Assembly: GCA_013140635.1 (NCBI GenBank)
Contig: JABFSM010000054.1
Span: forward strand, 1-63,047
Origin: Gemmatimonadales bacterium
Lineage (GTDB): Bacteria; Gemmatimonadota; Gemmatimonadetes; Gemmatimonadales; GWC2-71-9
Length of the DNA: 63,047 nt
Reading direction: 5' to 3'
Position 1 is the stretch's first letter. Every line of letters begins with the position of its first letter. The notes beneath the pieces were generated by a model that made no database searches, was not told the DNA's origin, and saw nothing but the letters and a program-made list of their open reading frames with translations. Below, piece by piece: positions 6,484 through 49,007 of this stretch. The translations under genes and the position numbers were made by a program.

Positions 6484-9400
6484 ATGACCTACCTCTTCAA
6501 GCTCGCTCATCGGATTGCCAAGATTCGAACCCCGCTCCTCATTGCCGCCATCGCCCTCTCGGGATGCGGCAAGGGGGAGAAGACCGACTTCCTAGCCCCG
6601 AACCCCAATGGGAGCACCCCGGTCCTTCAGACGATCAGGGTAGAGCCCCAGCTGGGCTCCGTTCGCGTCGGTGACGAAGTGCAGTTCACCGCCACGGGCT
6701 ATAGTGCGACCGGCGCCCTCCTCCCCGTTACGGTGGACTGGTCGGCAACCGGCGGCATCATCACCTCCGACGGCCGCTTTACCGGCGTCTTGACGGGCCC
6801 CCACACGGTGACGGCGCGAGCGCGGGACCGGCAATCGGTTGCCGACTCGGCCCGGGTTACCGTCTGGAATAGCCCGACCGAAATCCTCGCCCTCGTCGTG
6901 TCGCCCGATTCGGCGATCATCGAGGAGGGAGATACCCTAGAGTTTTCGGCGGCTCTCGCGATGGTCAACGGCGCGCTGACGCAGAGTGCGGCCGTCTCCT
7001 GGTCTTCGTCCGGCGGTTTCATGGACTCGTTCGGGCGCTTCAGCGCCGCAGTCGCGGGTGAGTACGTGATCACCGCACAGTCGGTCAGCAGCCTTCGCGG
7101 GATCGCTCGGATCTTCGTCCAGAAGAAGCGGCGGCGCCTGCAGAGGATCAACATCGATCCGACCGGGATCCAGCTCAACCCGGCGCAGACCCGGCAGTTC
7201 CAGGCCGCGGGCGATTGGTCCGATGGCAGCAGCGCCGCACCCGATGTCGTCTGGAGCGCCACCGGCGGCACCGTCGCCAATGGGCTCTTCACCGCCGCCG
7301 GCACCCCGGGAAGTTTCCAGGTCGTGGCGCGGGAGCAGGACGGCAACATCGCCGATACCGCCTCGGTGACGATTGTCGAAACGGCTATCACGAAGCTGGC
7401 GATCACCCCCGGCTCCGTTTCGCTCACGCCGAACGCGCCCCAGCAGTTCAGTGCGCTGGCGCAGCGCGCCGATAATTCATGGAACACCGTTGCGCTCAAC
7501 TGGCGGATCGTCGGCGCGGGAAGCATCTCTTCCGCTGGGCTCTACACCGCCCCCGCCGCCGCCGGGAACTACCAAGTGATCGTCGGGACGCCGGGCAGCG
7601 CCGTCGAGGACACCGCTGAGGTCCGCATCGAGACGCCGGTCGCGACCCTGAACCAGATCATCGTGGCCCCGTCCAGCGCGACGGTCGCGGCGGGCGGAAG
7701 CCGCCAGTTCTCGCTGACCGGTGTGTGGAGCGATGGTGGGTCGACCGCTCCGGATGCCTCCTGGTCCGCGACCGGTGGTACCATCTCGGCGAGTGGTCTC
7801 TTCGTGGCGGGCTCGGTCTCTGGTACGTACACCGTGATCGCCACCGCCACGAACGGGAAGGCCGATACGAGTGTCGTCACCATCTCCGCTCCCGTGCTCA
7901 CGGCCGTCCAGCTTACTCCCGCGAACAGCTCGCTCCAGGTCGGTCAGACGCAGCAATTCGCGGTCTCCGGAAGCTGGAGCAACGGCGCCACGACGGCTCC
8001 GGCGGTCTCCTATACGGCGAACGGCGGCACGATCAGCGCCGGCGGCCTCTACACTGCCGGGTCGAGCGCCGGTACCTATTCGGTGATCGCGGCTGAGCAG
8101 GGTGGTACGCTGGCCGATACCAGCTTCGTCACGATTTCGACCCCGGCGCCGGTTCTCGCCGGCGTGCTGCTCTCTCCCGCTTCGGTGACGCTCAATGCCG
8201 GCGGCGTTCAGCAGTTCACCGCGGTTGGGTCGTACAGCAACGGCACGACCGGCACGATTACCATCTCCTGGTCGGAGACCGGTGGTTCGATCAATAGCAC
8301 CGGCCGCTTCACCGCCGGGTCGACTCCGGGCACCTACCGGGTTGTCGCTCGGCTCTCCGGCGGCACTATGGCGGATACCTCGACGGTGATCATCGCGTCG
8401 CCGGCGACCCTCACCGGGCTCAGCGTTTCGCCGAAGCCCTACTCGGCCCAGGTGAGCAGCGCGGCGCGGCAGTTCAATGTGAGCGCGACCTGGTCGAGCG
8501 GCGCCACCACGGTGCCCTCGATTCTCTGGACCGCCACCGGCGGCAGCATCACCTCGGGCGGTCTTTACACGCCGAGTTCGACGGCCGGCACCTTCCGGGT
8601 CATTGCGCGGCACTCGGGCGGCACGCTTGCGGACACCACGGCGGTGACCCTCACGGCGGCCCCGCCGCCGCCGGCAACGCTCAGCAGCGTCACGATTTCG
8701 CCGAAGCCGGTGTCGATGCCGGTGGCCGGCGCCCAGCAGTTCAACGCGAGCGCGCTCTGGTCGGACGGCGGCACCACCGTGCCGAGTATCACGTGGAGCG
8801 CCACCGGCGGCACCGTGAACGGCAGCGGCGCCTACACGGCCGGTTCGACGGCGGGTACCTTCCGCGTCATCGCGGCCGGCGGCGGCAAGGCCGATACCGC
8901 TAACATCACGATCAGCGCTGTGGCGCCGACCGTGACGAGCTTCGTTCTTTCGCCCGGGAGCGCGACGGTTCCCGCGGGCAGCACCCAGCAGTTCTCGACG
9001 GCCACCACCTGGTCCAATGGTGCGAGCGGGGGGGTCACGGTATCATATTCCGCTACCGGAGGCTCTATCTCGACCAACGGACTCTTTACCGCGGCCCAGG
9101 CGGCGGGCACCTTCGCAGTCATCGCCTCCTGCAGCTGCGGGCGGGCGGATACGTCCGTCGTTGCCGTCTCGGCCGTCTCCGGTCCGACGCTGACCAGCTT
9201 GCGGGTCAGCCCCAAGCCGGTCTCGGTGTACACCGGCGGCGTCCAGGCCTTCTCCGTGACCCCCACGTGGAGCGACGGTTCGAGCACTCTTCCGTCGATC
9301 ACCTGGTCGGCCACCGGCGGCAACATCACGAATGGCGGCGTCTACACTGCCGCGGGCTCGGCCGGGACGTTCCGCGTCATCGCGAGCGGCGGCGGCAAGG

Positions 9401-38986: not shown

Positions 38987-40069
38987 GTGAGCCATCTCGT
39001 TGCTCCCGCACCATTCGGCGGGCTCGAAGCGGTCGTTGCCGCCCTTGCGGGGGGAATGGCGCGCCGCGGGCATGATGTGCGCATCCTTGCTCTCCTCGGC
39101 GCGTCGGGCGGCTGCGCGGCCTTCGAGGAGCTCATACCCCTCGGTGTCGAGCTCGTGGAATTGCGGCACCCTCCCCGAGACTATCGTGCCGAGGCGCGCG
39201 CGGTACGCACCGAAATCGACCGGCGGGGAGCCGGTGTCCTTCACACCCACGGTTACCATGCCGATCTGGTTGGGCTCTGGGCAAGCGGAGCGCCCGGCAG
39301 CCGTCTGGTTTCGACGGCGCACGGTTTCACCGGCGGTGGTTGGAAGAACCGGCTGTACGAGTGGGTGGATCGGCGGGTACTTCGCCGGTTCAACGCCGTC
39401 GTCGCTGTGTCGAGACCATTAGGGGAGCGGCTTACGGCATCCGGGGTACCGCGAGATCGAGTGGCGGTTATCCCGAATGGGTACGTCCCTCCAGAGGAGC
39501 TCTTGACCCGGGAGCAAGCGCGCCAACGTCTCGGTATTCCTTCGGAAGCGTTGGTTGCGGGATGGGTTGGGCGGCTGTCCCACGAGAAGGGCCCCGACCT
39601 GATGCTCGAGGCGCTTCGGCTGGCCCCCGCCTGGCATTGTGCCTTTATCGGGACTGGCCCGCTCCGGCAGCTGTTGATCCGGCAGGCGGAGCGGCTGGGT
39701 ATCGCTCCGCGAGTGGGCTGGCATGGCGCACTGCCGGCCGCCGCCGGGTACTTTCGCGCGTTCGACGCCATCGTCGTGAGTTCGCGCACGGAAGGGACGC
39801 CTATCGTCGTGCTCGAAGGGATGGGAGCAGGAGTGCCGCTCATCACCACCGAGGTTGGAGGGATTCCGGACATGCTGACCGGTGCCGAGGCGCTGCTCGT
39901 TTCCGCCGGTTCGGCGGAGGGTATTGCCGAGGCACTGGAGGAGGTGCGCGCTCGGCCTGAAGCAGCGCGGCGACGCGCGCTGGCGGCTCGGGCCCGGCTG
40001 GAGGCAGACTACTCGCTCGATTCGATGCTCGACAGATACGAGACTCTCTACCAGGGGCTTGCCGCCTGA
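38987..40069 (+). CDS. GT4-family glycosyltransferase
   Basis: The GTG at 38987 lies in frame within listed ORF 38657..40069. Motifs VSHLVAPAPFGGLEAVV and SRTEGTPIVVLEGMGAGVPLITTEVGGIPDML. Confidence 0.8.
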   Translation: MSHLVAPAPFGGLEAVVAALAGGMARRGHDVRILALLGASGGCAAFEELIPLGVELVELRHPPRDYRAEARAVRTEIDRRGAGVLHTHGYHADLVGLWASGAPGSRLVSTAHGFTGGGWKNRLYEWVDRRVLRRFNAVVAVSRPLGERLTASGVPRDRVAVIPNGYVPPEELLTREQARQRLGIPSEALVAGWVGRLSHEKGPDLMLEALRLAPAWHCAFIGTGPLRQLLIRQAERLGIAPRVGWHGALPAAAGYFRAFDAIVVSSRTEGTPIVVLEGMGAGVPLITTEVGGIPDMLTGAEALLVSAGSAEGIAEALEEVRARPEAARRRALAARARLEADYSLDSMLDRYETLYQGLAA

Positions 40070-41253
40070 TGCTGGACAACATCACCGACTCCTCCCGGAT
40101 CGAAGGCGAGTTCATTCTCCTCTTTCCCATCGTCTTGCTGGTCTTTTCGTATATGGTGTATCCGGCCATCATGTGGGTGGTCGGGCGGTTCCGTTCCTAT
40201 CCTCTCCCCAAAGAGGACCCGCCCGAATGGCCCGAGATTACCATCACCCTTCCGGTCTACAATGAAGAGAGGGCGATCGCCGCGACGATCGAAGCGCTCC
40301 TTGCGCTGGATTATCCGGTCGATCGTCGCCACATCCTCGTTGTGTCCGATGCCTCGACCGATCGCACCGATGAGATCGTCGGGGGGTTCGCGTCCCGAGG
40401 GGTACGGCTGGTGCGGTTGCCGGTTCGCGCGGGAAAAACCGCCGCGGAAAACGCGGCGTTGTTACATGTCAAAGGCGAAATCATCGTCAATACCGATGCC
40501 ACCATCCGGATCCTCCCCGGTGCACTGAAGGCGTTGGTGAGAGTCTTTCAAGACCCGAAGATCGGGTTGGCTTCCGGCCATGACACGAGCGTGGGGGACG
40601 CGTCCCACGAGGGGAACTATGCCGAATCGGGCTACGTCGGCTATGAAATGTGGGTGCGTTCGCTGGAAACCAGAACCGGTTCGATCGTCGGGGCGAGCGG
40701 CTGCTTCTATGCGAATCGGCGGGAGCTATTCGACATCTTGTTTCCGTCGGCGCTGAGCCGAGACTTCGCCTCGGCGCTCATCGCCGTGGAGCGGGGATAC
40801 CGTGCGGTCTCGGTCGACGATGCGGTGTGCCTGGTTCCTCGTACCAAGTCGCTCAAGTCGGAGTACCGGCGGAAGATCCGCACGATGACCCGCGGTCTCG
40901 AAACGCTTTGGTACAAGAGGGCGGCGATCTTCAAGGGAGGGCCGTTGTTCGCCTTCCAGGTCCTGACCCACAAGCTGATCCGTTGGCTGGTTTTCCTTCC
41001 CTTGCCGCTCGTCCCGATCGGACTCCTCATTCTCGCGCCGACCTACCCCTGGGCCAGGTGGAGTCTCTACGCCGCGATTCTCGGAACCCTGCTCGGCATC
41101 GCCGCCTTTGCTTGGCCCGATGGCAAGCGGCCTCCCAGGATTCTCGGCATTCCCGGGTTCGTCGTCGGTTCAACGGTTGCGGGGTTCATCGCATGGATCA
41201 AAGCGCTGCAGGGCGAACTCAATCCGGTTTGGGAGCCAACCAGGAGAAACTGA
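40069..41253 (+). CDS. GT2-family membrane glycosyltransferase (synthase-like, with N- and C-terminal TM helices)
   Basis: Motifs ITITLPVYNEERAI, VVSDASTDRT and VNTDAT. C-terminal helices follow the catalytic domain. Confidence 0.8.
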   Translation: MLDNITDSSRIEGEFILLFPIVLLVFSYMVYPAIMWVVGRFRSYPLPKEDPPEWPEITITLPVYNEERAIAATIEALLALDYPVDRRHILVVSDASTDRTDEIVGGFASRGVRLVRLPVRAGKTAAENAALLHVKGEIIVNTDATIRILPGALKALVRVFQDPKIGLASGHDTSVGDASHEGNYAESGYVGYEMWVRSLETRTGSIVGASGCFYANRRELFDILFPSALSRDFASALIAVERGYRAVSVDDAVCLVPRTKSLKSEYRRKIRTMTRGLETLWYKRAAIFKGGPLFAFQVLTHKLIRWLVFLPLPLVPIGLLILAPTYPWARWSLYAAILGTLLGIAAFAWPDGKRPPRILGIPGFVVGSTVAGFIAWIKALQGELNPVWEPTRRN

Positions 41254-41387
41254 CTTGAAGTTGTTGTAGCGGTGCCGCGTCAACCGCACTTTCAGAGCTG
41301 AGTGCCGGCTGTCGTCGTTCGGCGCTTCTCTCGCACAAGTCTCTTCCCATTCACCTCTTAGAAAACCGCATCTCCCGCGTGCCATAC

Positions 41388-41402
41388 TGGCTCGGGGCTT
41401 GC
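41388..41402 (+). promoter_or_regulatory. Candidate sigma-54 promoter for the mini PEP-CTERM protein gene
   Basis: TGGCTC-GGGGC-TTGC(G), with GG at 41389-90 and GC at 41401-02. It lies 34 nt upstream of the ATG at 41436. Confidence 0.55.
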
Positions 41403-41435
41403 GGTGCCCATCCTAGTAATGGAATCTGGTCGCCA

Positions 41436-41660
41436 ATGACACCACTCCGATTGCTTCTCGCGCTGGTCGTCCTCTCCATCGCTTCAGCCCCCGCTGTGTC
41501 CTCGCTCCAGCTTTCGACACCGGATCCCGCACACCCCCTCGAGCTTTCGGCAGGTTCCGAGGATACTTCGACTCCAGGGCCGGCGGTCATGCTTCTGGTG
41601 GCGGCGGGGCTGCTGGGGTTGGCTGGGCTCGGGTATGGGCGGCGGAGGCGGCACCACTAG
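41436..41660 (+). CDS. 74-aa secreted mini-protein with a PEP-CTERM-like sorting signal (PGP variant)
   Basis: The internal ATG of listed ORF 41379..41660 gives a signal peptide MTPLRLLLALVVLSIASAPAVSS. A ~24-aa acidic/Pro-rich segment follows, then TPGPAVMLLVAAGLLGLAGLGYGRRRRHH (motif + TM helix + Arg cluster). Confidence 0.65.
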   Translation: MTPLRLLLALVVLSIASAPAVSSLQLSTPDPAHPLELSAGSEDTSTPGPAVMLLVAAGLLGLAGLGYGRRRRHH

Positions 41661-41666
41661 ATAACT

Positions 41667-41686
41667 GGGCGGCTTACCAGCCGCCC
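41667..41686. terminator. Hairpin between convergent genes (possible bidirectional terminator)
   Basis: GGGCGGCT, loop tacc, AGCCGCCC (8-bp GC stem). It overlaps the last codons of the minus-strand sugar transferase. The flanking T/A runs are poor. Confidence 0.4.
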
Positions 41687-42456
41687 TTACGAAGCAGAAT
41701 GACCGGGATCGTCTCAAGCATAATCTTGAGGTCCTGCCAGAACCCCTGCGACCGCACATACTCGAGATCGAACTCCACCTTCCGCTCGACGTCTTCGAGG
41801 CAGGAGTCGTATTGCTGCCGGACCTGCGCGAGGCCGGTGATGCCGGGCCGGGCCCGCTGCCGCAGCTTGTAGTCGGGAATCGCTTCCCGAAGCTGCGCAA
41901 AGATCGTCGGGCGCTCGGGCCGAGGGCCTACGACATTCATCTCCCCCTTGAGCACGTTGAGGAGCTGGGGAAGCTCGTCGAGCCGATACTGCCGGAGGAC
42001 GCGTCCGATCTTGGTAACGCGCGGGTCGTTCTTCGTGGCCCAGACCGGTCCGGTCTGTTGTTCCGCGGCCATGTGCATCGTGCGGAACTTGTAGATCGTA
42101 AACGGCTTACCGCCGAGATCCTGCTTGCGGCGCGGATCGTTCGGTCCGGCGTTCGAGTTCCGGTTGTCGAGTCCTACGCGGACTTGGGTGTGAAAGATCG
42201 GCCCTCTCGAGGTCACCTTGACGAGAATCGCGATGACGATCCAGAGCGGAAGCGTCAGGATGATCCCCAACGAGCCGACGATGACGTTGAGGAGGCGGCG
42301 TGCCCCCGCATGGTCCTCGAGCTGGGTATCAGCCGGCGCGGGCGGCACGACCCTGAGGTAGGGTTGACGGGTGCCCGCGACCCGTCCGGCCCGCTCCTCG
42401 TTCCGTCCGCCGGGGAGTTTGATCATTGGTGGCTGGGGGTTCGGTGCAGAGGTCAT
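41674..42456 (-). CDS. Polyprenyl-phosphate glycosyl-1-phosphate transferase (bacterial sugar transferase, small single-TM type)
   Basis: Motifs GPIFHTQVRVG, GKPFTIYKFRTM and DELPQLLNVLKGEMNVVGPRPE. Confidence 0.9.
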   Translation of the reverse strand: MTSAPNPQPPMIKLPGGRNEERAGRVAGTRQPYLRVVPPAPADTQLEDHAGARRLLNVIVGSLGIILTLPLWIVIAILVKVTSRGPIFHTQVRVGLDNRNSNAGPNDPRRKQDLGGKPFTIYKFRTMHMAAEQQTGPVWATKNDPRVTKIGRVLRQYRLDELPQLLNVLKGEMNVVGPRPERPTIFAQLREAIPDYKLRQRARPGITGLAQVRQQYDSCLEDVERKVEFDLEYVRSQGFWQDLKIMLETIPVILLRKGGW

Positions 42457-47471: not shown

Positions 47472-49007
47472 ATGAGCAGTCCACTGGTTACGGATCCAAA
47501 CCGCTCCTACGCACCCGGAAGCGACAGCTCCGCGGCGCGCGATCCGCTTTCGATCCCCCCGGAGATCAAAGCCAGTATTCGGATTCTCCTGGTCGACGAC
47601 GAACGGACCCTTCGGGAGAGTTGCGCCAGCGTCCTTCAGATGGACGGCTTCTCGGTAACGCTGGCGGGGCGGGGTGAGGAGGCGGTCGACCTCCTCAAGA
47701 ATCGGAAGTTCGACATCATGCTGGTCGACCTGTATATGTCGCAGGTTTCCGGCCTCGAGTTGCTGCGGGCCGCGCTCGATTCCAATCGAGACATCATCGT
47801 GGTCGTCATGACCGGCAATCCCAGCGTGTCGACCAGCATCGAAGCGCTCCGTGCCGGCGCCTGGGACTACCTTCCGAAGCCGTTCTCGGCGACCCATCTC
47901 CAGGTCTTGATCGGCCGAGCATCGCACGCGGTCATGGTCAATCGCGAAGCCAGCGAGCTTCGCCAGCGGGTTCTTCAGCAGCACAGCCACAGCGATACTC
48001 TGACCCTCATCGGCATTTCACCGCCATTCCGGAAGGCAGTCGAGTTGGCGCGGAAGGTGGCCCTGACCGACGCGAGCGTCTTCATCAGCGGGGAAAGCGG
48101 AACCGGCAAAGAAGTCATTGCCCAGTTCATTCACCAGCACAGCCGCCGGTCGCGCAAGCCGCTCGTGGCCATCAACTGCGCGGCGCTTCCGGAACCGCTC
48201 CTGGAATCGGAGATGTTCGGCCACCGGAAGGGCTCCTTTACCGGCGCCGATCGTGATAAGCCCGGCCTGCTCGAGACCGCGAATGGCGGCTCCTTTTTCC
48301 TGGACGAGCTCACCGAAATGCCGCTGGCGTTGCAGGCTAAGTTGCTGCGAGTCATTCAAGACGGTGTCGTGCGCCGAGTCGGCTCCGAGTCGACCGACGC
48401 CCAAATCGACGTCCGCTTCATTTCCGCCACCAACCGCGATCCGCAGCAGGCGGTGGATAGCGGCGTGCTTCGCGGCGACTTGTTCTACCGGCTCCGCGTG
48501 GTGCCGATTGCCCTACCGCCGCTTCGGAAGCGCCAAGAGGACATTCCGCTCTTGGCCAATCACTTCCTCACCTACTATTGGCACCGGCACCGCCAGATGC
48601 CCGACCGGTGTCCGCGGCTCAGCGAGGAGAGCATCGCCTTCCTCAAGTCGCGCCCGTGGCGCGGCAATGTGCGGGAGCTGCAGAACGTCATCGAGCACAC
48701 GACGGTCCTGATGGATCCGGATCAAGTGATCCAGCCGGGCGACATCCCGCTCTACGAGGACGGCGCCGGCGAACCCGCGGTGGAGGCTCGGCCGGTTCCG
48801 ACACCGATGGGGAACGAACCGTATCATGTGGCGAAGGACCGAGTCGTGGCCGATTTCGAGAAGCAGTACCTTACGGCGCTGGTCGAGCGCGCCGCGGGCA
48901 ACATGTCGAAGGCGGCGCGGCTTGCGGGGGTCGACCGTACCACGCTCTATCGTTTGATCGACAAGCACCAGTTGCTGCGGGCCGACGGTGAAGGATCGGT
49001 CGAGTGA
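47472..49007 (+). CDS. NtrC-family sigma-54-dependent response regulator (REC-AAA+-HTH; candidate PEP-CTERM-box regulator, PrsR-like)
   Basis: REC motif ILLVDDERTLRE...DIMLVDLYM. AAA+ motifs GESGTGKEV, FFLDELTEM and ESEMFGHRKGSFTGA (GAFTGA variant). HTH motif NMSKAARLAGVDRTTLYRLI. Confidence 0.85.
   Translation: MSSPLVTDPNRSYAPGSDSSAARDPLSIPPEIKASIRILLVDDERTLRESCASVLQMDGFSVTLAGRGEEAVDLLKNRKFDIMLVDLYMSQVSGLELLRAALDSNRDIIVVVMTGNPSVSTSIEALRAGAWDYLPKPFSATHLQVLIGRASHAVMVNREASELRQRVLQQHSHSDTLTLIGISPPFRKAVELARKVALTDASVFISGESGTGKEVIAQFIHQHSRRSRKPLVAINCAALPEPLLESEMFGHRKGSFTGADRDKPGLLETANGGSFFLDELTEMPLALQAKLLRVIQDGVVRRVGSESTDAQIDVRFISATNRDPQQAVDSGVLRGDLFYRLRVVPIALPPLRKRQEDIPLLANHFLTYYWHRHRQMPDRCPRLSEESIAFLKSRPWRGNVRELQNVIEHTTVLMDPDQVIQPGDIPLYEDGAGEPAVEARPVPTPMGNEPYHVAKDRVVADFEKQYLTALVERAAGNMSKAARLAGVDRTTLYRLIDKHQLLRADGEGSVE

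What the first reader, a model, noticed from the sequence alone, without database searches (positions are those of the whole stretch)
41388..41686. 74-aa mini PEP-CTERM-like protein with a PGP variant motif and its own sigma-54 promoter, but no exosortase nearby
Seen in sequence: signal peptide (MTPLRLLLALVVLSIASAPAVSS), then a ~24-residue acidic/Pro-rich middle (LQLSTPDPAHPLELSAGSEDTS), then TPGP-AVMLLVAAGLLGLAGLGY-GRRRRHH. After both termini are removed, only ~20-25 residues would remain. Established knowledge: PEP-CTERM signals (Pro-Glu-Pro + TM + basic cluster) are recognised by exosortases, and tiny PEP-CTERM proteins are enriched next to EPS loci. Their function is unknown. One idea is that they act as acceptors or primers for glycan attachment. 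Inference: here Glu is replaced by Gly (PGP), the gene sits at the end of the sugar operon behind TGGCTC-N5-TTGC, and the sorting enzyme must be encoded elsewhere.
Basis: partly seen in the sequence, partly recalled or inferred. Interest (0 to 1): 0.6.

Follow-up and report, generated by a model that had tools for sequence, protein, structure and literature searches.

The report
Orphaned PEP-CTERM mini-protein after exosortase loss
A 74-residue secreted, membrane-anchored mini-protein in a Gemmatimonadales polysaccharide locus is a leftover of the PEP-CTERM/exosortase sorting system: relatives carry the sorting enzyme at exactly this spot, it is missing here, and the signal's key glutamate has become glycine.

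Summary
The ORF is real: 41436-41660, 74 aa, with a signal peptide, a ~25-aa acidic Pro/Ser/Thr linker, TPGP, an 18-aa TM helix and RRRRHH.

Its tail is homologous to the PEP-CTERM tails of this clade. A custom HMM gives 39 bits, the best of 48,924 ORF tails in the genome. It fails the curated PEP-CTERM model because Glu is replaced by Gly.

The 93%-complete MAG has no exosortase, no EpsI and no other PEP-CTERM protein. In same-genus relatives, exosortase and EpsI lie directly after the sugar-transferase gene. Here 13 nt separate that gene's stop from the mini-ORF's stop.

Two other exosortase-less alleles of the locus carry the same mini-gene. One is 75 aa and also reads TPGP. The other is 96 aa and still reads TPEP. 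A 209-aa PEP-CTERM protein shares their signal peptide and tail.

The −24/−12 element is at chance level within the window. However, such elements are strongly enriched upstream of Gemmatimonadales PEP-CTERM genes (16/26 against 6% in controls).

Verdict: this is an orphaned PEP-CTERM derivative. It is most likely a σ54-driven peptide anchored in the inner membrane, or a relic slowly decaying. It is not an exosortase substrate. Interest is modest.

The parts
41388..41402 (+). σ54-type -24/-12 element TGGCTC-N5-TTGC, starting 48 nt and ending 33 nt upstream of the ATG
   Evidence: The exact match is unique in the window, but 0.75 matches are expected by chance. Comparative support: 16 of 26 Gemmatimonadales PEP-CTERM genes carry a match of >=8/11 within 200 nt upstream, against 6.4% of 1,945 control upstream regions. 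The syntenic PEP-CTERM genes of G002/G003/G006 read TGGCCC-N5-TTGCT. rpoN is present on contig C39.
41436..41660 (+). 74-aa mini-ORF (stop included): an orphaned PEP-CTERM derivative
   Evidence: codon-position GC; custom tail HMM, 39 bits, top of 48,924 ORF tails; orthologues at the same site.
41436..41504 (+). Predicted Sec signal peptide (aa 1-23; n-region MTPLR, h-region LLLALVVLSIA, candidate signal peptidase I sites APA|V or VSS|L)
   Evidence: Read directly from the sequence; no predictor was run. The orthologues have equivalent N-termini (MKNLRALTVAFALAGAVVLPGKAAA, MKNFGFVTAALVLAGAVSLPGTASA).
41505..41570 (+). Short acidic Pro/Ser/Thr-rich linker (aa 24-45), the only 'mature' extracytoplasmic part
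   Evidence: Sequence. This region is poorly conserved between orthologues.
41571..41582 (+). TPGP motif (ACT CCA GGG CCG). It corresponds to TPEP of PEP-CTERM tails, with Glu replaced by Gly through a single GAG>GGG-type change
   Evidence: All 28 local tails have PEP. Among library hits there are 158 PEP, 1 PNP and 1 PEA, and the only PGP is the G015 orthologue.
41583..41657 (+). TM helix AVMLLVAAGLLGLAGLGY (aa 50-67) plus the basic cluster GRRRRHH (aa 68-74)
   Evidence: Matches profile positions 13-34 of the LPXTG_anchor model (TM and basic part only, 17.6 bits) and the clade's PEP-CTERM tails.
41661..41673 (.). 13-nt spacer between the convergent stop codons. This is the empty slot where relatives carry EpsI and exosortase (1.5-3.2 kb)
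   Evidence: No trace of either gene was found by blastn, tblastx or tblastn.
41667..41686 (.). 8-bp GC hairpin GGGCGGCU-UACC-AGCCGCCC straddling the 3' end of the sugar-transferase gene. Possibly a bidirectional terminator, but without a clear U-tract
   Evidence: -16.9 kcal/mol, z = -4.2. The simple terminator scan did not call it. The orthologues in G015 and the ENA contig have classical hairpin plus U-tract terminators.
41674..42456 (-). Polyprenyl glycosylphosphotransferase (priming sugar transferase). In congeners its 3' neighbour is the exosortase
   Evidence: TIGR03025, 265 bits, below the cut-off; TIGR03013, 218 bits, below the cut-off.
40069..41253 (+). GT2 glycosyltransferase, the upstream neighbour of the mini-ORF and a syntenic anchor
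47583..48974 (+). NtrC-family σ54 enhancer-binding response regulator in the same EPS island. A candidate activator only
   Evidence: 360 bits to PEP_resp_reg (PrsR), cut-off 502.6. It is one of at least eight such regulators in the genome.

Best explanation
The ORF encodes an orphaned derivative of a PEP-CTERM protein.

**How it arose**
- In the ancestor of this locus allele, a PEP-CTERM gene lay between the GT2 gene and the EpsI/exosortase pair of a Wza/Wzc-type polysaccharide locus.
- The mature domain of that protein was whittled down. Forms of 209, 96 and 75/74 aa still exist.
- The EpsI and exosortase genes were deleted.
- With the enzyme gone, the Glu of the Pro-Glu-Pro recognition motif was no longer constrained and became Gly.

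**What the product does now (inferred)**
- It is probably transcribed from a σ54-type promoter, as PEP-CTERM genes of this order often seem to be.
- It is exported by Sec and cut by signal peptidase I.
- It is not processed further. It stays in the inner membrane as a peptide of about 50 residues. About 25 acidic Pro/Ser/Thr-rich residues face the periplasm, one TM helix spans the membrane, and RRRRHH lies in the cytoplasm.
- This is the intermediate state that Haft's model proposes before exosortase acts.
- Any remaining role, for example as a small accessory of the polysaccharide machinery, is unknown.

**Shown:** the sequence architecture, the homology of the tail, the absence of the enzyme, the synteny, and the existence of orthologues.

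**Inferred:** expression, topology, lack of cleavage, and the order of events.
For: 1. **The tail is PEP-CTERM-derived.**
 - P0001 residues 42-73 hit canonical VPEP tails in 57 of 61 related genomes.
 - An HMM built from 28 local tails scores it at 37-39 bits, E = 7e-10, the top hit among all own-genome ORF tails. Changing G to E in silico adds about 9 bits.

2. **The enzyme is missing.**
 - PF09721, TIGR04178 and tblastn with the exosortase and EpsI of G014 find nothing in G000.
 - No PEP-CTERM protein scores above the cut-off.
 - 17 of 25 congeners have an exosortase and 22 of 25 have PEP-CTERM proteins. Besides G000, the only congeners that lack both are the near-closed genomes G015, G017 and G018.

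3. **The deletion is at this exact site.**
 - In congeners the exosortase starts about 50-250 nt after the sugar-transferase gene, followed by EpsI, sometimes a 245-290-aa PEP-CTERM gene, and then GT2.
 - The gap between the two anchor genes is about 3.2 kb in relatives that keep all three genes (1.6 kb in G014, which has only exosortase and EpsI). It is 420 nt in G000, 526 nt in G015 and 21 nt in G017.

4. **Orthologues exist.**
 - G015 has a 75-aa mini-protein with TTTPGP.
 - An ENA contig has a 96-aa mini-protein with STTPEP in the same exosortase-less slot.
 - The 209-aa P0004 has a near-identical signal peptide and tail.
 - The sugar-transferase tree groups G000, G014, G015 and the ENA contig (support 97/96).

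5. **Glu is constrained only where the enzyme is present.** The motif is PEP in 28 of 28 local tails and in 158 of 160 P-x-P tail motifs in library hits other than the G015 orthologue; one further hit reads PEA. It is Gly in 2 of the 3 orphan mini-proteins.

6. **The promoter is credible.**

7. **Published background.** Haft et al. 2006 (PMC1569441) proposed that lone PEP-CTERM regions in EpsH-less genomes are remnants. They also proposed that signal-peptide cleavage leaves such proteins anchored by the C-terminal helix.
Against: - There is no expression evidence.
- The G000 copy has only a weak Shine-Dalgarno sequence, unlike GAGGAG in G015 and GAGGA in the ENA contig.
- The mini-protein evolves 4-5 times faster than its neighbours (dN 0.89 against 0.17-0.21). 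Its dN/dS of about 0.5 was estimated at saturated dS, so purifying selection is not demonstrated.
- The σ54 element is absent upstream of the G015 copy and is at chance level within the window alone.
- The MAG is 93% complete, so absence of the enzyme rests on the empty slot plus the absence of substrates, not on a closed genome.
- Whether the genome behind the ENA contig lacks an exosortase is unknown.
Confidence: 0.75

Rival explanations
1. The ORF is a non-functional relic. It is a decaying remnant that is no longer translated, or has no role, on its way to the complete loss seen in G017.
For: - dN is 4-5 times that of the neighbouring genes and dN/dS is about 0.5.
- The recognition motif is mutated.
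- The curated HMM fails.
- The Shine-Dalgarno sequence in G000 is weak.
- G017 and about 30 other Gemmatimonadales loci have nothing between GT2 and the sugar transferase.
- Haft 2006 explicitly anticipates such remnants.
Against: - The open frame, signal peptide, P-x-P, GL.GL helix and basic cluster are kept in three lineages whose flanking genes have dS > 1.2.
- The codon-position GC pattern fits a coding frame in both G000 and G015.
- Two orthologues keep a good Shine-Dalgarno sequence and a classical terminator.
- G000 keeps a σ54-type promoter of the kind typical for PEP-CTERM genes.
Confidence: 0.17
2. TPGP-TM-RRRR is a working sorting signal recognised by an enzyme other than an exosortase, that is, a new 'PGP-CTERM' system.
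For: - TPGP is identical (codon GGG) in two species whose mini-proteins are otherwise only 27-31% identical.
- The two prolines and the helix signature are retained.
Against: - There is one copy per genome, it occurs in only two genomes, and it has no paralogues.
- No rhombosortase scores above the cut-off and no sortase was found.
- The sister orphan still has PEP.
- The PGP form is not found elsewhere among 1.8 billion representative proteins, even though the query profile favoured it.
Confidence: 0.05
3. The protein is a genuine exosortase substrate, and the enzyme lies in the unassembled 7% of the genome.
For: MAG completeness is 93% in 349 contigs. Some incomplete congeners have PEP-CTERM proteins but no detected exosortase (G001, G019, G025).
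Against: - In 15 of 16 congeners where both genes were found in these searches, the exosortase lies immediately 3' of this sugar-transferase gene. That position is contiguous and empty here.
- The genome has no other PEP-CTERM protein.
- G015, with the same allele, is in 8 contigs and also has no exosortase.
Confidence: 0.03

Closest known systems
PEP-CTERM domain proteins sorted by exosortase (EpsH/XrtA); TIGR02595 / PF07589; Haft et al. 2006, PMC1569441
   Same: - Signal peptide, short low-complexity region, P-x-P, TM helix with a GL.GL pattern, and an Arg-rich end.
- Location inside an EPS locus.
- A single-gene unit behind a σ54-type element.
- Demonstrable homology to the clade's PEP-CTERM tails.
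   Different: - Glu of the near-invariant PEP is Gly.
- The protein is below detection by the curated model.
- There is no exosortase or EpsI in the genome, and it is the only such tail in the genome.
Lone PEP-CTERM regions in EpsH-less genomes (Chlorobium tepidum, two copies), read by Haft et al. 2006 as possible remnants of a lost system
   Same: PEP-CTERM-type tails persist without the enzyme, at very low copy number.
   Different: - Here the deletion site of the enzyme can be pinpointed by synteny.
- The relic is shared by three lineages.
- The recognition Glu has changed in two of them.
Small RpoN-dependent PEP-CTERM proteins such as PepA of Aquincola tertiaricarbonis/Zoogloea (PMC9850573)
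   Same: A PEP-CTERM gene with a -24/-12 promoter (TGGCAC/CTGCTT in that paper) linked to exopolysaccharide and floc biology.
   Different: - Those organisms keep the exosortase and PrsK/PrsR. Here no regulator reaches the PrsR cut-off and no exosortase exists.
- A different phylum is involved.
62-aa mini PEP-CTERM proteins of congeners G001/G005 (MKRVL...TVVPEPATMALLATGLIGLAGLGFLRHRRKK)
   Same: The same mini architecture and the best full-tail match to P0001 (45-48% identity over residues 27-72).
   Different: They have a canonical PEP, lie in a different locus (downstream of a ThiC-like gene), and G005 has an exosortase.
LPXTG cell-wall anchor (TIGR01167), the only curated model over its cut-off
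   Same: A hydrophobic helix plus a basic C-terminus (17.6 bits against a cut-off of 15.9).
   Different: The match covers only profile positions 13-34. There is no LPXTG motif and no sortase in the genome, and the organism is a diderm. The hit is generic, not evidence of membership.

Membership tests
PEP-CTERM sorting domain (TIGR02595 / PF07589) | Near-invariant Pro-Glu-Pro motif just before the helix | tested here: not met
   The motif is Pro-Gly-Pro (CCA GGG CCG). All 28 local tails have PEP. Library hits give 158 PEP, 1 PNP and 1 PEA, and the only other PGP is the G015 orthologue.
PEP-CTERM sorting domain (TIGR02595 / PF07589) | Score at or above the curated cut-off of the family HMM (16 bits) | tested here: not met
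   No TIGR02595 or PF07589 hit even at E <= 10. The whole-genome scan does not list this site at E <= 1.
PEP-CTERM sorting domain (TIGR02595 / PF07589) | TM helix followed by a basic cluster at the extreme C-terminus, and an N-terminal signal peptide | tested here: met
   AVMLLVAAGLLGLAGLGY plus GRRRRHH. The N-terminus is MTPLR followed by an 11-residue hydrophobic core and an APA|V site. This was judged by inspection. The custom clade HMM gives 37-39 bits.
PEP-CTERM sorting domain (TIGR02595 / PF07589) | Co-occurrence with an exosortase (EpsH/Xrt) in the same genome, usually with several PEP-CTERM paralogues | tested here: not met
   The assembly is 93% complete, but the canonical slot for the enzyme is contiguous and empty.
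σ54-dependent PEP-CTERM regulon (PrsK/PrsR/PrsT, Haft 2006) | -24 GG / -12 GC element upstream of the gene | tested here: met
   TGGCTC-N5-TTGC at 41388-41402. Such elements are enriched upstream of clade PEP-CTERM genes.
σ54-dependent PEP-CTERM regulon (PrsK/PrsR/PrsT, Haft 2006) | Cognate PrsR (TIGR02915) regulator above the cut-off | tested here: not met
   The best hit in the genome is 389 bits and the hit in the window is 360 bits, against a cut-off of 502.6. PrsK and PrsT were not searched.
LPXTG/sortase substrates (TIGR01167) | LPXTG motif and a sortase in the genome | tested here: not met
   Only profile positions 13-34 matched. No PF04203 hit.
GlyGly-CTERM/rhombosortase substrates | Gly-Gly motif and a rhombosortase (TIGR03902, at least 84 bits) | tested here: not met
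   There is no GG before the helix. The best rhomboid-family hit is 52.7 bits.

The most novel reading that the evidence does not exclude
The orphan tail is not junk but has been put to a new use. After exosortase loss, a PEP-CTERM tail with Glu replaced by Gly (a change that arose twice) is kept as a σ54-controlled, permanently membrane-anchored micro-protein that takes part in polysaccharide assembly. Alternatively, it is the substrate of an unrecognised enzyme. If so, these three natural alleles (PEP and PGP without enzyme, PEP with enzyme) would show which residues of the signal serve the exosortase and which serve membrane insertion.
Probability: 0.12. Interest if true: 0.6.

Novelty: new variant of a known kind. 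Interest (0 to 1): 0.35.

Why it matters
No exosortase/PEP-CTERM cleavage has been reconstituted biochemically, and the role of the invariant Glu is only inferred. This locus offers a natural comparison. The same gene slot exists in four forms:
- with enzyme and PEP;
- without enzyme but still PEP;
- without enzyme and PGP, in two lineages;
- completely empty.

The pattern supports the view that Glu is kept only for the enzyme, while the prolines, helix and basic cluster persist without it. It also provides ready-made constructs for a cleavage assay.

The finding has a practical side for annotation. A PEP-CTERM-like tail in a genome should not be read as evidence that an exosortase is present.

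A by-product is that σ54-type promoters upstream of PEP-CTERM genes, described for Proteobacteria, also appear in Gemmatimonadota.

Tried and rejected
- **Curated HMMs.** NCBIfam and Pfam give no PEP-CTERM hit. Only a generic LPXTG_anchor tail match was found, and it was rejected because it covers the TM and basic part only and no sortase exists.
- **Word-based homologue search.** With P0001 it found nothing at E <= 1. With the G015 mini-protein and with P0005 it found only the queries themselves.
- **Paralogues in the own genome.** A regex scan and a custom-HMM scan found none. The only other weak hit is a 33-aa ORF on C109 without P-x-P.
- **Remnants of exosortase or EpsI in the 420-nt gap.** blastn and tblastx against the gaps of six relatives matched only the PEP-CTERM tails. 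tblastn of the G014 exosortase and EpsI against the whole genome gave a best E of 0.47.
- **Alternative sorting enzymes.** The rhombosortase search found only generic rhomboids below the cut-off. No sortase and no TIGR04178 domain were found.
- **PrsR.** The nearby NtrC-type regulator is below the cut-off and is one of many.
- **σ54 element in G015.** It is not conserved there.
- **Other mini SP-TM ORFs in the same slot.** None were found in 80 genome loci and 80 metagenome loci.
- **P0004 in 250 family genomes.** Not found.
- **dN/dS.** dS is saturated at 1.2-1.7, so the ratio is only indicative.
- **Single origin with the species tree.** The RpoB tree rejects G000 and G015 as sisters (AU p = 4e-7), while the locus genes group them. 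Simple vertical inheritance was therefore rejected in favour of a shared or recombined locus allele.
- **First RpoB tree.** One search used some wrong ORFs and was discarded.
Full report
**1. Observation**

Its parts are:
- a Sec-type N-terminus: MTPLR, then the hydrophobic core LLLALVVLSIA, then small residues with APA|V or VSS|L as possible signal peptidase I sites;
- a 22-27-residue acidic Pro/Ser/Thr-rich stretch;
- T46-P-G-P49;
- an 18-residue helix, AVMLLVAAGLLGLAGLGY;
- the C-terminus GRRRRHH.

TGGCTCGGGGCTTGC lies at 41388-41402. An 8-bp GC hairpin at 41667-41686 sits between this ORF and the convergent sugar-transferase gene.

Codon-position GC is 0.73/0.55/0.72. This is the pattern expected for a coding frame in a 66% GC genome, and it recurs in the orthologue of G015.

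The neighbours form a generic Wza/Wzc-type polysaccharide locus: GT1, GT2, priming glycosylphosphotransferase, Wza-like exporter, REC-GGDEF protein and Wzc-like kinase. None of them reaches the cut-offs of the XrtA-specific models. The organism is a Gemmatimonadales MAG.

**2. Is it a PEP-CTERM protein?**

Curated models say no. TIGR02595 and PF07589 do not report it even at E <= 10. The only model above its cut-off is LPXTG_anchor, at 17.6 bits, and it matches only the helix and basic part.

Homology says yes.
- Residues 42-73 hit the C-termini of 200-450-aa ORFs in 57 of 61 related genomes. Those tails read ...T(V/T)(V/T)PEPatmaLLATGLvGLaGaG..RRRRK.
- I built an HMM from 28 such tails, all of which have PEP.
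- That HMM scores the mini-protein at 37-39 bits (E = 7e-10). It is the best of 48,924 ORF tails in the organism's own genome.
- Changing Gly48 to Glu in silico raises the score by about 9 bits.

The tail is therefore a PEP-CTERM tail with a single change in the recognition motif.

**3. Where is the exosortase?**

Nowhere in this assembly.
- PF09721, TIGR04178 and tblastn with a congener's exosortase and EpsI find nothing.
- No PEP-CTERM protein scores above the cut-off.
- No sortase or rhombosortase is present.

In the genus, which has 26 species genomes including G000, 17 of the 25 congeners have an exosortase and 22 of 25 have PEP-CTERM proteins. Besides G000, the congeners that lack both are G015, G017 and G018, and those three are near-closed assemblies of 5-10 contigs.

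Synteny settles the point.
- In 15 of 16 congeners where both genes were found in these searches, the exosortase begins about 50-250 nt after the orthologue of the sugar transferase at 41674-42456.
- It is followed by an EpsI-like gene, in some species by a convergent 245-290-aa PEP-CTERM gene, and then by the convergent GT2 gene.
- The distance between the sugar transferase and GT2 is about 3.2 kb in G003, G006 and G020 and 1.6 kb in G014.
- It is 420 nt in G000, 526 nt in G015 and 21 nt in G017.

In G000, 13 nt separate the stop codon of the mini-ORF from the stop codon of the sugar transferase. No remnant of exosortase or EpsI is detectable there.

Across 80 genome loci and 80 metagenome loci of the order, both forms of the locus are common.
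- Genome loci: 35 with the enzyme pair and 31 without (24 of these with a gap of 200 nt or less, 7 with more); 14 were cut or otherwise unclassified.
- Metagenome loci: 23 with and 32 without.

Loss of the enzyme pair is therefore a recurrent polymorphism of this polysaccharide locus.

**4. Relatives of the mini-gene**

G015 carries a 75-aa ORF in the same place and orientation: MKNLRALTVAFALAGAVVLPGKAAAVAHQPDSYDRGVGAPAPATTTPGPLSMVFLATGLVGLMLVARRKKKQKAV. It has the same TPGP (codon GGG in both species), a good Shine-Dalgarno sequence (GAGGAG) and a classical terminator.

A profile of the two mini-proteins was searched against 1.8 billion representative proteins. It returned:
- the G015 protein itself;
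- a 96-aa mini-protein, P0005, with a very similar signal peptide and tail but a canonical STTPEP;
- a 209-aa PEP-CTERM protein, P0004, with a nearly identical signal peptide and tail (alignment).

P0005 lies on an ENA contig directly convergent with the sugar transferase and exporter. The spacer is 111 nt and contains a terminator. This is the same exosortase-less slot.

The sugar-transferase tree groups G000, G014, G015 and this contig (support 97/96). The GT2 tree makes G000 and G015 sisters (89/89). RpoB rejects that pairing (AU p = 4e-7). The locus allele therefore has a history different from the core genome. G014, within the same allele group, keeps exosortase and EpsI but has no mini-gene.

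The simplest reading has four steps:
- a PEP-CTERM gene next to the enzyme pair was shortened;
- the enzyme pair was lost;
- Glu then changed to Gly in the G000 lineage;
- Glu changed to Gly separately in the G015 lineage, because the nearer relative of G015 still has Glu.

That makes two changes at this codon among three orphan copies. By contrast, all 28 local tails have PEP. Of the 160 P-x-P tail motifs in library hits other than the G015 orthologue, 158 have Glu, one reads PNP, and one further hit reads PEA. This holds even though the query profile favoured Gly.

**5. Is it still a gene?**

For:
- three lineages keep the open frame, signal peptide, P-x-P, GL.GL helix and basic cluster, although the flanking genes have dS of 1.2-1.6;
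- two copies keep good translation and termination signals.

Against or unclear:
- dN is 0.89, against 0.17-0.21 for the neighbours, and dN/dS is about 0.5 at saturated dS;
- the G000 copy has a weak Shine-Dalgarno sequence;
- no expression data could be obtained.

**6. The promoter**

On window statistics alone the -24/-12 match is unremarkable: 1 found against 0.75 expected. I then examined the 200 nt upstream of 26 distinct PEP-CTERM(-like) genes in the fetched Gemmatimonadales loci.
- 16 carry a match of at least 8 of 11 positions to TGGCAC-N5-TTGCA, with GG and GC fixed. Nine carry at least 9 of 11. The matches usually lie 45-60 nt before the start codon.
- The control set was 1,945 upstream regions of long ORFs in this genome. 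There the rates are 6.4% and 1.2%.
- The binomial probability is 2e-13. Counting only about 10 independent gene families, it is still about 1e-5.
- The syntenic PEP-CTERM genes of G002, G003 and G006 read TGGCCC-N5-TTGCT, and that of G020 reads TGGTCC-N5-TTGCA.

The G000 element (TGGCTC-N5-TTGCG, starting 48 nt before the ATG) belongs to this class. rpoN is present. An NtrC-type activator lies 6 kb away, although it is below the PrsR cut-off and is one of at least eight in the genome. The G015 copy has lost the element.

This agrees with published work. Haft et al. 2006 reported σ54 motifs upstream of proteobacterial PEP-CTERM genes. The PepA gene of Aquincola is RpoN-dependent (PMC9850573).

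**7. Mechanism**

Haft's model holds that, after signal-peptide removal, a PEP-CTERM protein is held in the inner membrane by its C-terminal helix, with PEP at the periplasmic face, until EpsH acts. Without EpsH, the expected fate of this product is to remain there. It would be a bitopic peptide of about 50 residues, with about 25 acidic Pro/Ser/Thr-rich residues in the periplasm and RRRRHH in the cytoplasm. That is my best explanation (confidence 0.75 for the orphan-derivative reading as a whole). Within it, I put roughly even odds on 'still useful' against 'slowly decaying'.

Rivals:
- a pure relic (0.17);
- a new signal recognised by some other enzyme (0.05);
- an exosortase hidden in the unassembled 7% of the genome (0.03).

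**8. Comparison and novelty**

The protein works like a PEP-CTERM tail that has stalled before the exosortase step, and it descends from such a tail. It fails three defining features of the family: the Glu, the curated HMM score, and co-occurrence with an exosortase. I therefore do not file it as a member.

Lone PEP-CTERM regions in EpsH-less genomes were already noted as probable remnants in 2006 (Chlorobium tepidum). What is new here:
- the exact deletion site can be identified;
- a graded series of alleles exists;
- the repeated Glu-to-Gly change occurs only where the enzyme is absent;
- σ54-type promoters of PEP-CTERM genes are extended to Gemmatimonadota.

This makes it a new variant of a known kind, of modest interest (0.35). 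Its main use is as a natural experiment on which residues of the signal serve the enzyme.

Noticed in passing
Loci L003-L013, L057, L060, L061, L065, L104, L105, L108, L159 (upstream of PEP-CTERM genes); window 41388-41402: σ54-type -24/-12 elements are strongly enriched 45-60 nt upstream of PEP-CTERM genes across Gemmatimonadales. Examples are CGGCATATCGCTTGCT and TGGCCC-N5-TTGCT. 16 of 26 genes score >=8/11, against 6.4% of 1,945 control upstream regions. Haft 2006 described this for Proteobacteria. I found no report for Gemmatimonadota.
   Followed up: partly
Window 40069-42456 and loci L113-L272: The exosortase and EpsI pair is a presence/absence polymorphism of an otherwise conserved GT2 / sugar-transferase / exporter / Wzc locus in Gemmatimonadales. 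Among 80 genome loci, 35 have the pair and 31 do not. Among 80 metagenome loci, 23 have it and 32 do not. At least three separate losses occurred within one genus.
   Followed up: partly
G015 (L052/L113) compared with G000: The gene trees of the EPS locus (GT2, sugar transferase) group G000 with G015 and G014. RpoB places G015 inside a different clade (AU p = 4e-7). This suggests lateral exchange or recombination of the polysaccharide locus between species of the genus.
   Followed up: partly
L193 3719-3946 (+) and L194 3767-3953 (+): In the two closest metagenomic loci that keep the exosortase, the GT2-EpsI spacer holds a conserved small ORF that starts with a single TM helix followed by RR (M..W.WLLSGAMA.VA.A..ALLVL...RR). 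It has no signal peptide or P-x-P. Its relationship to the mini-gene is unknown.
   Followed up: no
Own genome contig C109, about 7719-7820 (-): A 33-aa ORF, MRLTVAVSETISMVVLAGGLLGLSVAGLLKKKK, is the only other own-genome ORF tail that resembles the clade's PEP-CTERM helix (23 bits). It has no P-x-P motif and no signal peptide. It may be chance or another fragment.
   Followed up: no
L003 1492-1680 (-) and L007 1492-1680 (-) (G001, G005): A canonical 62-aa mini PEP-CTERM protein (MKRVL...TVVPEPATMALLATGL...RHRRKK) lies just downstream of a ThiC-like gene. After signal-peptide removal, only about 10 residues would precede the PEP motif.
   Followed up: no
Library proteins P0003 (697 aa), P0006, P0007: Some database 'proteins' contain two or three complete units of signal peptide, domain and PEP-CTERM in tandem within one frame. 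Each tail is followed directly by a new signal peptide. These look like tandem PEP-CTERM genes merged by gene calling or by read-through of stop codons.
   Followed up: no
G013 (L084, L092): Two different partial rpoB copies are present in one MAG (94.5% and 88.7% identity to the G000 RpoB). This suggests a mixed bin.
   Followed up: no
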